A stretch of 64,000 nt of DNA from Escherichia coli (GCF_003991155.1 NZ_CP031293.1), one strand, 5' to 3'; counted from the first letter of the stretch, positions 45,801-48,800 are shown. Program-made: the numbers.

Positions 45801-48800
45801 GTATATGGCTGAAGTGGAGTCCGGCGTTTACCCGGGCGAAGAACACAGTTTCCATTAAGGAGTGACGTTGTGTTAATTATCGAAACCCTGCCGCTGCTGC
45901 GTCAGCAAATCCGCCGCCTGCGTATGGAAGGTAAGCGCGTGGCGCTGGTGCCAACCATGGGTAACCTGCACGATGGCCATATGAAGCTGGTCGACGAAGC
46001 CAAAGCCCGCGCCGATGTGGTCGTCGTCAGTATTTTCGTTAACCCAATGCAGTTTGACCGCCCGGAAGATCTGGCACGTTATCCACGGACCTTGCAAGAG
46101 GACTGCGAAAAGCTGAACAAACGTAAAGTGGATTTAGTTTTTGCGCCTTCGGTAAAAGAGATCTACCCGAACGGTACAGAAACCCACACCTATGTTGATG
46201 TTCCCGGTCTTTCCACCATGCTGGAAGGTGCCAGCCGTCCGGGACATTTTCGCGGCGTTTCGACTATTGTCAGCAAACTGTTCAACCTGGTCCAGCCGGA
46301 CATCGCCTGCTTCGGTGAAAAGGATTTTCAGCAACTGGCGCTGATCCGCAAAATGGTTGCCGACATGGGCTTTGATATTGAGATTGTCGGAGTGCCGATT
46401 ATGCGCGCGAAAGACGGTCTGGCGCTCAGTTCCCGTAACGGCTATCTGACGGCGGAACAACGTAAAATTGCGCCGGGTCTGTACAAGGTCTTAAGTTCAA
46501 TTGCCGACAAATTGCAGGCTGGCGAACGGGATCTCGATGAAATTATTGCTATTGCCGGGCAAGAACTGAATGAAAAAGGTTTCCGTTCCGATGATATTCA
46601 GATTCGCGATGCCGACACATTGCTGGAAGTCTCTGAAAACAGCAAACGTGCAGTGATTCTGGTAGCCGCCTGGCTTGGCGATGCCCGCCTGATCGACAAC
46701 AAAATGGTCGAACTGGCGTAATACTTAACTGGCGCTACGGCTGATGGCGCCAGTTATTCATTGCCACGTCATCTGTAAGCAATTATTCATATCGTAGACA
46801 ACTTAGTTAGAGTTAATTAGCTTATCAATCTCTGCAAGAGATAAAGCTGTCACCTCTGCAACGTCTTCCCGAGACATTCCTTTACTCAGAAGACGCTGGG
46901 CCAGTCTTACCTTCTGGAGTCCCTCTTTATATCCCTTCTGAAATCCCTTCTGAAATCCCTTCTGAAATCCCTTCTCTTCAAACCACTGCGCCAACGTCTG
47001 CCTGGTTTCTCTCCGTGTCTTTATTTCCATATGTTCCCTTAATTATCTGGTCAGTTAACAATAACAATTATCTGGCTATAACTGATAATGCAGATAACTT
47101 AGCTAATCAGCTTATCAACCTCAGCAAGAGGTAAATTTGCCATCTCTGCAACGTCTTCCCGAGACATCCCTTTACTCAGAAAACGCAGGGCGAATTCCTG
47201 TCTTACTTCCTGTCTAACCTCTTGTATTACCTCCTGTCTTACCTCCTGTCTTACCTCCTGCCTTTCCTCCTGTCTTCCCTTCTCTTCAAACCACTGCGCC
47301 AGCGTCATCATAGACTCCCCTCCCGTTTCCCTGTCTCTCAGCACACCATAAAACAAATCCGCTTGTTCAGTATGACCGCGTTGCAGCATATAGTTTTGCA
47401 TGGCAACTAACTGACTTCCGCTAGTGTACCCTTCGTCAATCAGCGTGACCAGTTGCTCCAGCAATAACATTAAGTCGCGTTGGCGAATATGTTTTTGCAG
47501 CAGTTCGAGAATCGCAATCCGCCGATGTTGCATGATTTCGTCATCCGGTGTGATAGTGATATCCACCAGCGGGAAAGGACTGTTATAGACGCGTCGCGCC
47601 AGCTCCGGCGAGTAAAACATATCAAACCAGCACATTGAGAGTGGATAAGGCGTGGCCTCGCCCTGATAAAACAAAATCGGCACCACCAGCGGCAGCTTAT
47701 CGTGATCCGCCTCCAGATGCCGGTGCATGGCGGCAATGGCATAGCGCATCATGCGAAAGGTCATTTTCTTATCCGGCTTGCTTTGATGTTCAATCACCAC
47801 ATGCAAATAACCGGGATTGCCCTGCATTTGTACGGAATAGAGTACGTCCGTGCTGTGTCCTTTCAGGCTTTCCTCAATAAAACTCCCCGACTCAAGATGC
47901 AGCGTGTCGAGGTCACACAGTTCGCGTAGCTCCGCTGGCAAATGAATATCCAGAAAGTCGCGAGCCGTTTCCGCATGCATTAAAAATTGTTTAAATACCG
48001 CATCATGCGGTGTGGTACTCGGTGCATCCATCTTCCCTGCCTTCCGTGCTGTCTTACGTGAAGGCAGTATCCAGTCAAGGCGCGCCGTCGTCAGCCGCCT
48101 CTTTTGTGTTTGCCGAGCAGCGTTCAGAGAAATTTCAATTGGTTACAGGTGTTACATGACTCGCTTCGGCACGGTACGCAAACTGCTGATGCAAATGCCG
48201 TCAGATGAGTAGACACTAAACAAAAATCGGGCAATACTGCGTGAGAATTTCCTCAAAGCAGGCATCGCCTGCTTCGTTAACGACAGGGTAGAAAGGTAGA
48301 AGTTATGATTCGCACGATGCTGCAGGGCAAACTCCACCGCGTGAAAGTGACTCATGCGGACCTGCACTATGAAGGTTCTTGCGCCATTGACCAGGATTTT
48401 CTTGACGCAGCTGGTATTCTCGAAAACGAAGCCATTGATATCTGGAATGTGACCAACGGCAAGCGTTTCTCCACCTATGCCATCGCGGCAGAACGCGGTT
48501 CGAGAATTATTTCTGTTAACGGTGCGGCGGCCCACTGCGCCAGCGTCGGCGATATTGTCATCATCGCCAGCTTCGTTACCATGCCAGATGAAAAAGCTCG
48601 CACCTGGCGACCCAACGTCGCCTATTTTGAAGGCGACAACGAAATGAAACGTACCGCGAAAGCGATTCCGGTACAGGTTGCCTGATTGTTATCCCTGCGG
48701 CTGGTTACTCACCAGCCGCGACATCGTCTCCAGCGAATCCGTTCTTAAGATATAAAGTCGTTTTAGTAACAACGGATTATCCCCCGGTTTTACTTTGCCT

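What the first reader, a model, noticed from the sequence alone, without database searches (positions are those of the whole stretch)
47197..47282. In-frame 12-bp tandem repeat arrays in the Rpn tail coding region
About seven copies of a CCTGTCTTACCT-like unit in rpnC, and 3.8 copies of ATCCCTTCTGAA at 46931-46976 in the paralog, each encode 4-aa repeats. Twelve-base units keep the reading frame, so slipped-strand or recombinational copy-number change would vary tail length without destroying the protein. This resembles a contingency locus and would explain the ~10 extra residues relative to the K-12 length I recall.
Basis: seen in the sequence. Interest (0 to 1): 0.5.

Follow-up and report, generated by a model that had tools for sequence, protein, structure and literature searches.

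The report
Variable 4-aa repeats in RpnC antitoxin tail
The two in-frame 12-bp repeat arrays are real and do change copy number between E. coli strains, but they are the already published hypervariable four-amino-acid repeats of the RpnC toxin/intragenic-antitoxin system and its extra downstream small gene, not a new kind of contingency locus.

Summary
Observation confirmed. TRF finds 7.1 copies of a 12-bp unit at 47196-47280 in rpnC (310 aa, minus strand) and 3.8 perfect copies at 46931-46975 in a 75-aa ORF downstream. These are the two strongest tandem repeats in the window and score far above shuffled sequence. The locus is panC / small ORF / rpnC / panD.

The repeats encode RQEV-type and KGFQ units in the first helix of the C-terminal tail. 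Zhong et al. 2023 (PNAS, PMC10400941) showed this tail is also translated alone from an internal start as the antitoxin RpnC_S. They showed its 4-aa repeat number varies between strains, and that adding one repeat to K-12 RpnC abolishes cognate neutralisation. They also described the downstream gene, rpnC_Ss.

Across 29 fetched E. coli loci, RpnC ranges from 290 to 322 aa and RpnC_Ss from 65 to 75 aa. Every array length difference is a multiple of 12 bp, in register. Four pairs of loci with 0 mismatches over 2.1-3.2 kb differ only by one unit. Three of these involve the KGFQ array on separate haplotypes, so single-unit changes recur.

The slippage and length-variation idea holds; the phase-variable contingency-locus idea does not. 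Already known; low interest.

The parts
47099..48031 (-). rpnC (yadD) CDS, 310 aa: full-length RpnC_L, a PD-(D/E)XK-family recombination-promoting nuclease (the toxin)
   Evidence: ORF. Pfam PF04754 covers residues 7-207, E 6.4e-87. TIGR01784 Rpn family, E 2.1e-82. Synteny panC-rpnC-panD as in K-12. RefSeq annotates the identical gene as rpnC.
47411..48013 (-). Conserved N-terminal nuclease domain (residues 7-207)
   Evidence: PF04754 match. The N-terminal part is always 240 aa and at least 95.8% identical pairwise across 22 loci, in contrast to the tail.
47315..47324 (-). Internal Shine-Dalgarno-like GGGAGGGGAG upstream of the RpnC_S start
   Evidence: Read from the sequence. GGGAGGG[G/A]AGTCTATGATG is conserved in all 23 sequences, including K-12, where the paper detected RpnC_S by ribosome profiling and SPA tagging.
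47099..47311 (-). RpnC_S, the intragenic antitoxin reading frame (M241 to stop, 70 aa), same frame as rpnC
   Evidence: ATGATG at 47306-47311 on the minus strand. Orthology to K-12 RpnC_S (PMC10400941). Translation in this strain is inferred.
47196..47280 (-). rpnC 12-bp array: seven 4-aa units (RQEE RQEV RQEV RQEV IQEV RQEV RQEF), starting 12 residues after the RpnC_S start
   Evidence: TRF; unit-by-unit read-out. Other strains carry 2 to 10 units and other unit types.
46803..47030 (-). rpnC_Ss: free-standing 75-aa tail-only paralog downstream of rpnC
   Evidence: ORF. TIGR01784 C-terminal positions 213-273, E 2.6e-10. DNA paralogy to the rpnC tail. RefSeq names it 'RpnC/YadD family protein'. 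Described as rpnC_Ss in PMC10400941. Similar DNA occurs in 1573 of 5426 genomes.
46931..46975 (-). rpnC_Ss 12-bp array: three perfect AAGGGATTTCAG (KGFQ) units plus a diverged KGYK unit
   Evidence: TRF, 100% matches. One unit more than in the 48 closest complete genomes, with 0 other differences against L001 over 2183 bp. The same 75-aa product occurs on other haplotypes.

Best explanation
The window carries the E. coli rpnC toxin-antitoxin locus in its two-gene form. rpnC encodes a 310-aa nuclease, RpnC_L. An internal ribosome-binding site and ATG at codon 241 allow the last 70 residues to be made separately as RpnC_S. In K-12, RpnC_S binds the toxin through the shared C-terminal helical domain and neutralises it. 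The 12-bp array lies in the first helix of that domain. Each unit adds four residues, about one helical turn, so unit number sets helix length and therefore which RpnS pairs with which RpnL. Because toxin tail and antitoxin are read from the same DNA, a copy-number change alters both together and keeps the pair matched, while insulating it from other Rpn variants. The 75-aa ORF downstream (rpnC_Ss) is a tandem duplicate of the tail only, with its own KGFQ array. Copy number changes by gain or loss of whole 12-bp units within runs of identical adjacent units. Replication slippage or unequal exchange are the likely causes, and the changes recur on different haplotypes. Shown here: anatomy, orthology, conservation of the internal start, between-strain variation, and single-unit events on otherwise identical DNA. 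Taken from the literature: RpnC_S expression, neutralisation, and loss of neutralisation on repeat-number mismatch. Inferred: that these properties hold for this RQEV-type allele, the slippage mechanism, and an antiphage role for chromosomal RpnC.
For: Family and orthology: PF04754 E 6.4e-87, TIGR01784, panC-rpnC-panD synteny and RefSeq rpnC annotation. Internal start: GGGAGGG[G/A]AGTCTATGATG is identical or near-identical in all 23 sequences including K-12. The repeats begin 12 residues after that Met, inside the 8-20 range given in the paper. Variation: 18 distinct variable segments among 22 intact RpnC, 15-47 aa long, against a fixed 240-aa N-domain at least 95.8% identical. Array spans of 159/171/183 bp for rpnC and 127/139/151 bp for rpnC_Ss in spread samples of 5426 genomes. 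Single-unit events on 0-mismatch backgrounds: window vs L001, L003 vs L001, L024 vs L029, L026 vs L004. These backbones differ from one another by 44-84 mismatches. All changes fall in runs of identical adjacent 12-mers. Published experiments on RpnC itself: RpnC_S detected, and only RpnC_S with the same repeat number blocks RpnC_L-induced SOS (PMC10400941; commentary PMC10400984). The AF2 model of RpnC_S is all-helical through the repeat region.
Against: Nothing functional was or could be tested for this allele. The published +1-repeat experiment used the K-12 KGIE-type tail, not the RQEV type. Antiphage activity was shown only for the plasmid-borne RpnP2, not for RpnC. Structural similarity to the RpnA_S crystal structure (7TH0) could not be shown: the AF2 model has pLDDT 68, Foldseek found no hit, and PDB sequence and profile searches did not reach 7TH0. 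The simple sigma-70 scan found no minus-strand promoter inside rpnC. Slippage is inferred from the pattern of differences, not observed.
Confidence: 0.85

Rival explanations
1. Classical contingency locus: a hypermutable simple-sequence repeat that switches the phenotype reversibly at high frequency within a clonal population, as in Haemophilus or Neisseria phase variation.
For: In-frame repeats whose number differs between strains. Recurrent single-unit gain or loss on three or four haplotypes with no other substitutions. The locus belongs to a defence-type system where diversification would be useful.
Against: Twelve-bp units never change the frame, so there is no on/off switch. There are only 2-4 identical adjacent units. 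All 48 closest complete genomes, from diverse hosts and countries, share the same interval length. The 3-unit small-gene allele is in 33 index blocks against 4027 for the 2-unit allele. The K-12-type interval is 1249 bp in all 32 sampled rows of that class.
Confidence: 0.08
2. Neutral minisatellite polymorphism in a tolerant linker: the arrays slip, but length has no functional consequence.
For: Wide length range, 15-47 aa, with all lengths apparently tolerated. Low-confidence structure prediction in the repeat region (pLDDT 55-57).
Against: Adding one repeat to K-12 RpnC_S or RpnC_LS abolished neutralisation unless both partners carried it (PMC10400941). Different unit types (RQEV, KGIE, KGFQ) keep the same one-hydrophobic-plus-three-polar pattern despite different DNA. 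No frameshifting indel was seen inside an array in any of the fetched loci.
Confidence: 0.06
3. The extra unit in the window's small gene is a sequencing or assembly artefact.
For: No complete RefSeq genome has the window's exact interval. The 48 best hits are all 12 bp shorter.
Against: A 48-bp array is trivial for any platform to span. The identical 75-aa product is on record in 33 index blocks. Draft assembly GCA_025259705.1 (L025) has the same 310+75 combination, with 2 mismatches in 3228 bp and no gaps.
Confidence: 0.02
4. The repeats act at the DNA level (protein-binding iterons) or belong to the plus-strand 62-aa ORF at 47222-47410, rather than to the Rpn tail.
For: A plus-strand ORF overlaps the array.
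Against: That ORF translates to a low-complexity leucine/serine-rich string with no support. All variation preserves the minus-strand frame and the amino-acid pattern, while the DNA units differ between allele classes. The minus-strand frame is continuous with a strongly supported Rpn domain.
Confidence: 0.01

Closest known systems
E. coli K-12 RpnC_L / RpnC_S (yadD), Zhong et al. 2023 PNAS (PMC10400941)
   Same: Orthologous locus between panC and panD. N-domain 97.9% identical. Identical internal SD-ATGATG. Tail with 4-aa repeats starting 12 residues after the internal Met. Same conserved flanks (MMTLAQWFEE ... SKGMSREDVAEM).
   Different: K-12 has a 300-aa protein with KGIE/KGIQ-type units (23-aa variable segment), a C-terminus 2 aa longer, and no downstream small gene. 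The window has seven RQEV-type units (35-aa segment) plus rpnC_Ss.
rpnC_Ss and rpnE_Ss (ypaA): free-standing RpnS copies downstream of rpn genes (same paper)
   Same: The 75-aa ORF is a tail-only tandem duplicate immediately downstream of rpnC with its own 4-aa repeats. This is the arrangement the paper draws for 'some E. coli strains'.
   Different: Expression was shown for YpaA/RpnE_Ss in K-12, not for RpnC_Ss. No Pfam DUF4351 (PF14261) hit at E of 0.1 or less for this ORF.
EcoR124I / EcoR124II HsdS TAEL repeats (cited in the paper's discussion)
   Same: In-frame 12-bp / 4-aa repeat in a helical spacer, where one extra unit changes specificity.
   Different: There the repeat sets the spacing of a DNA recognition sequence. 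Here it sets protein-protein pairing between toxin and antitoxin.
Simple-sequence contingency loci of Haemophilus and Neisseria (general knowledge, not tested here)
   Same: Tandem repeats in coding sequence that change by slippage, in genes at the host-parasite interface.
   Different: Those use 1-8 bp units in long tracts, shift the frame or promoter spacing, and switch at high frequency. This array is in frame, short, and stable across near-identical genomes.

Membership tests
Rpn (YhgA-like) recombination-promoting nuclease family; RpnC ortholog | N-terminal PD-(D/E)XK 'Transposase_31' domain | tested here: met
   PF04754 covers residues 7-207, E 6.4e-87. TIGR01784, E 2.1e-82.
Rpn (YhgA-like) recombination-promoting nuclease family; RpnC ortholog | Chromosomal position between panC and panD, as in K-12 rpnC | tested here: met
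   ORF map. K-12 J53 locus L002 annotated panC / rpnC / panD. Similar DNA in 5424 of 5426 genomes.
Rpn (YhgA-like) recombination-promoting nuclease family; RpnC ortholog | DNA endonuclease activity and toxicity / SOS induction | not testable with these tools
   Known only from experiments on K-12 proteins (PMC10400941).
RpnL-RpnS gene-within-gene toxin-antitoxin system | Internal translation initiation site that yields the C-terminal tail as a separate small protein | tested here: met
   At sequence level only: GGGAGGGGAG-N5-ATGATG at codon 241, conserved in all 23 sequences and identical to K-12, where RpnC_S was detected. Expression in this strain was not tested.
RpnL-RpnS gene-within-gene toxin-antitoxin system | Four-amino-acid repeats (one hydrophobic plus three charged/polar/Gly) beginning 8-20 residues after the RpnS Met | tested here: met
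   Units RQEV and KGFQ. The array starts 12 residues after M241. Criterion quoted from the paper.
RpnL-RpnS gene-within-gene toxin-antitoxin system | Repeat number varies among strains of one species | tested here: met
   RpnC lengths of 290-322 aa and variable segments of 15-47 aa. Array spans of 159/171/183 bp and 127/139/151 bp. Single-unit differences on 0-mismatch backgrounds.
RpnL-RpnS gene-within-gene toxin-antitoxin system | RpnS fold: three-helix bundle with a long first helix forming the dimer interface (PDB 7TH0) | tested here: inconclusive
   The AF2 monomer is all-helical but has pLDDT 68. Foldseek against the PDB gave no hit. phmmer and profile searches against the PDB did not reach 7TH0; they found only HTH-like similarity in the last two helices.
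RpnL-RpnS gene-within-gene toxin-antitoxin system | RpnS neutralises only the RpnL with a matching repeat number; antiphage protection | not testable with these tools
   Published for K-12 RpnC (SOS assay) and for plasmid RpnP2 (phage assays). PADLOC v2.0.0 gives no meaningful hit.
Free-standing RpnS small gene (rpnC_Ss; DUF4351-type) | Separate small ORF homologous to the Rpn tail, adjacent to the rpn gene | tested here: met
   TIGR01784 positions 213-273, E 2.6e-10. About 80% DNA identity to the rpnC tail. RefSeq name 'RpnC/YadD family protein'.
Free-standing RpnS small gene (rpnC_Ss; DUF4351-type) | Pfam PF14261 (DUF4351) match | tested here: not met
   No PF14261 hit at E of 0.1 or less. 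The paper says this annotation applies 'in some species' only.
Simple-sequence contingency locus (phase variation) | Copy-number change switches expression or reading frame on and off | tested here: not met
   The unit is 12 bp. Every observed array difference is a multiple of 12 and keeps the frame.
Simple-sequence contingency locus (phase variation) | High-frequency, reversible change within clonal populations | tested here: inconclusive
   Recurrent single-unit events on at least three haplotypes. But the 48 closest genomes share one length, and the variant is in 33 index blocks against 4027. Within-culture heterogeneity cannot be measured here.

The most novel reading that the evidence does not exclude
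The free-standing RpnC_Ss may not be a redundant spare antitoxin. In all 15 two-gene loci examined with an intact rpnC, its variable helix differs in length from that of the RpnC_S encoded in the same genome (by 2-22 aa, or 8 aa longer). Its array also mutates independently of the rpnC array. Under the published rule that only equal repeat numbers neutralise, it should not pair with the resident toxin. It could be a tail 'cassette' that recombines with rpnC to swap specificity (fusion alleles such as L013 exist), or it could be a decoy or antitoxin aimed at non-self Rpn variants. The recurrent single-unit changes at perfect adjacent 12-mers would then be the first comparative evidence on the expansion mechanism, which the paper left open.
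Probability: 0.2. Interest if true: 0.5.

Novelty: already known. Interest (0 to 1): 0.2.

Why it matters
The repeats set the pairing specificity of a toxin and an antitoxin read from the same DNA. This is a compact way to diversify a defence-type system without breaking it. That was published in 2023, with the key experiment done on RpnC itself, so the finding adds nothing new in kind. This analysis adds modest comparative detail:
- Copy number changes one unit at a time.
- Changes occur only where adjacent 12-mers are identical.
- The same change recurs on different haplotypes.
- The downstream small gene is never length-matched to the resident tail.

The first three bear on the repeat-change mechanism, which the paper named as an open question. 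The fourth bears on what rpnC_Ss does, which is my own question.

Tried and rejected
- **Exact-sequence cluster look-up:** returned 'not in the collection' for all three sequences, including the common RefSeq 71-aa form. It was uninformative. The look-up of encoding contigs later found both small proteins.
- **PDB searches with RpnC_S and with a 12-tail profile:** neither reached RpnA_S (7TH0). They found only HTH-like similarity to a designed repeat protein and weak matches to a MarR-family regulator and sigma factors.
- **AF2 model of RpnC_S:** a shallow 12-sequence alignment gave pLDDT 68 and a broken first helix. Foldseek against the PDB found nothing. The structural membership test is therefore inconclusive.
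- **Sigma-70 promoter and terminator scan:** no minus-strand promoter inside or upstream of the tail and no terminator. The internal transcription start reported in the paper could not be checked this way.
- **PADLOC:** no meaningful hit.
- **Literature search for follow-up work after 2023:** nothing on how the repeats expand.
- **Readings considered and rejected:** the plus-strand 62-aa ORF over the array, and a DNA-level iteron role, because variation preserves the minus-strand frame and residue pattern.

Full report
**1. What is in the sequence**

The window around the finding reads panB (45064-45858, +), panC (45870-46721, +), a 75-aa ORF (46803-47030, -), a 310-aa ORF (47099-48031, -) and panD (48305-48685, +). 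The 310-aa protein has the YhgA-like PD-(D/E)XK domain PF04754 over residues 7-207 (E 6.4e-87). It also matches the Rpn family model TIGR01784 end to end. The identical gene is annotated rpnC in RefSeq.

Tandem Repeats Finder reports 7.1 copies of a 12-bp unit at 47196-47280 (84% matches, score 121) and 3.8 perfect copies at 46931-46975 (score 90). These are the two best arrays in the 64-kb window. Forty dinucleotide-preserving shuffles never exceeded a score of 56. On the coding (minus) strand the arrays read RQEE RQEV RQEV RQEV IQEV RQEV RQEF and KGFQ KGFQ KGFQ KGYK.

**2. What the two ORFs are**

The small ORF is not a second Rpn gene. It is a copy of the tail alone. Its DNA aligns with the rpnC tail at about 80% identity from the QWFEE codons through the stop codon, offset by 296 bp. 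It matches only the last 60 positions of TIGR01784 (E 2.6e-10).

Inside rpnC, a strong Shine-Dalgarno-like GGGAGGGGAG (47315-47324) sits five bases upstream of ATGATG at codon 241 (47306-47311). This motif is conserved in all 23 sequences compared, including K-12.

**3. What is already known**

Zhong et al. 2023 (PNAS, PMC10400941) showed the following:
- All five K-12 rpn genes have an internal translation start that yields the C-terminal tail as a small protein, RpnS. RpnC_S was detected by ribosome profiling and SPA tagging.
- RpnS neutralises the toxic full-length nuclease RpnL.
- The repeats start 8-20 residues after the RpnS methionine, in the long first helix of a three-helix bundle (RpnA_S, PDB 7TH0).
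- RpnC has the most repeats among the E. coli Rpn proteins.
- Inserting one extra KGIE unit into RpnC_S or RpnC_LS abolishes neutralisation unless both partners carry it.
[quoted passage not shown] It can be lost by deletion or by fusion.

Antiphage protection was shown for plasmid RpnP2, not for RpnC. The authors state that the mechanism of dodecamer expansion 'warrants further study'. The accompanying commentary repeats these points. A search for later work found nothing on the repeat mechanism. The finding is therefore a rediscovery of a published feature.

**4. Independent test of variation**

megablast of the panC-panD interval hits 5424 of 5426 complete E. coli genomes. An evenly spread sample of 59 chromosomal rows shows 16 interval-length classes from 1184 to 1583 bp. 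The K-12 class (1249 bp) takes 32 of the 59 rows.

I fetched 22 representatives:
- RpnC is 290, 294, 296, 298, 300 (K-12), 302, 306, 310, 314 or 322 aa. A 318-aa form appears in draft genomes.
- The small protein is 65, 67, 69, 71 or 75 aa.
- The N-terminal 240 residues never change length and are at least 95.8% identical. The segment between QWFEE and SKGM ranges from 15 to 47 aa, with 18 distinct versions among 22 proteins.
- Unit types fall into allele classes: RQEV-type (window), KGIE-type (K-12; up to ten units in L015) and short mixed forms.

Short queries spanning each array gave the population picture. rpnC_Ss-like DNA is present in 1573 of 5426 genomes, with array spans of 127, 139 or 151 bp, corresponding to one, two or three KGFQ units. 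The RQEV-type rpnC array is covered in full in 1383 genomes, with spans of 159, 171 or 183 bp.

**5. How copy number changes**

None of the 5426 complete genomes matches the window exactly. The 48 best hits all have an interval exactly 12 bp shorter. Four pairs of loci have 0 mismatches and differ by exactly one 12-bp unit:

| Pair | Aligned length | Difference |
|---|---|---|
| window vs L001 | 2183 bp | one ATCCCTTCTGAA unit in the small gene |
| L003 vs L001 | about 2.2 kb | one unit in the rpnC array |
| L024 vs L029 (318-aa rpnC backbone) | 3228 bp | one KGFQ unit |
| L026 vs L004 (322-aa backbone) | 2109 bp | one KGFQ unit |

The window's exact 75-aa product exists in draft assemblies, in 33 index blocks against 4027 for the 71-aa form. 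It is paired with rpnC genes of 306, 310, 318 and 322 aa. The three backbones for which a partner differing only by the unit was found (310, 318 and 322 aa) differ from one another at 44-84 sites, so the two-to-three unit change has arisen at least three times.

In every case the change lies within a run of identical adjacent 12-mers. The K-12-type array has no identical neighbours, and its interval length is invariant in the sample. This pattern is what homology-dependent slippage or unequal exchange predicts. It is an inference from comparisons, not an observed mechanism.

**6.

In-frame copy-number change and slippage are supported. The K-12 arithmetic also works: +12 aa in the variable segment, -2 aa at the C-terminus, net +10. 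But K-12 carries a different unit type, so this is an allelic replacement plus expansion rather than a simple expansion.

'Contingency locus' is not an apt label, for three reasons:
- There is no frame switching.
- The tracts of identical units are short.
- All 48 closest genomes, from humans, cattle, poultry, dogs and wastewater on several continents, share one length.

The functional meaning is specific: matching of toxin and antitoxin helices. It is not generic tail-length variation.

**7. Limits**

Structural membership could not be confirmed:
- The AF2 model of RpnC_S is all-helical but has only pLDDT 68.
- Foldseek found nothing.
- PDB sequence and profile searches did not reach 7TH0.

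Membership therefore rests on orthology to the experimentally studied K-12 gene. No promoter was detected by the simple scan. PADLOC has no matching model.

**8. Verdict**

It is mechanistically interesting but already published, with the decisive experiment performed on RpnC itself. Novelty: already known. Interest: 0.2.

What remains is modest: recurrent single-unit events at perfect repeats, and the consistent length mismatch between RpnC_S and the RpnC_Ss encoded in the same genome (15 of 15 loci). Together these raise the question of what the second small gene is for.

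Noticed in passing
window 46803-47030 vs 47099-47311; loci L001-L022: In all 15 two-gene loci with an intact rpnC, the variable segment of RpnC_Ss differs in length from that of the RpnC_S encoded in the same genome (RpnC_S longer by 2-22 aa in 14 loci, 8 aa shorter in one). Under the published equal-repeat-number rule, the extra small protein would not be a cognate antitoxin for the resident toxin.
   Followed up: partly
window 46931-46942: The window carries one KGFQ unit more than the 48 closest complete genomes, with no other difference from L001. The same 310+75-aa combination exists in draft assembly GCA_025259705.1 (L025, 2 mismatches in 3228 bp).
   Followed up: yes
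L007 (NZ_CP072687.1) 652-1576: rpnC is annotated as a frameshifted pseudogene, but the tail reading frame (a 96-aa ORF containing RpnC_S) and rpnC_Ss remain intact. The antitoxin parts have possibly been retained after loss of the toxin.
   Followed up: no
L013 (NZ_CP173463.1) 382-1272: A single-gene locus whose 296-aa RpnC ends in the Ss-type C-terminus (...TLSLTEVDKLINSN). This is consistent with a deletion that fuses the rpnC N-domain to rpnC_Ss, as mentioned in the paper.
   Followed up: partly
L018 (NZ_CP017251.1, O157:H7 lineage) 417-714: About 300 bp lie between panC and rpnC with no annotated small gene, and the match to the window starts only at query position 364. This may be a divergent or decayed rpnC_Ss remnant.
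   Followed up: no
window 29859-29906: The only other tandem repeat in the window, with period 18 and 2.7 copies. It encodes the acidic [17 protein letters not shown] tract near the N-terminus of an 849-aa minus-strand ORF (27452-30001) that looks like PBP1b/mrcB. It appears ordinary.
   Followed up: partly
window 46731-46755: An inverted repeat, CTGGCGC-N11-GCGCCAG, lies just after the panC stop, between the convergent panC and rpnC_Ss. It may be a shared terminator hairpin, but the terminator scan did not call it because it lacks a T-run.
   Followed up: no
search results: 61 of the 6599 matching places are on plasmids, for example NZ_OZ392440.1, which matches only the N-terminal part of rpnC at 94.6%. 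This fits the plasmid-borne Rpn paralogs described in the literature.
   Followed up: no
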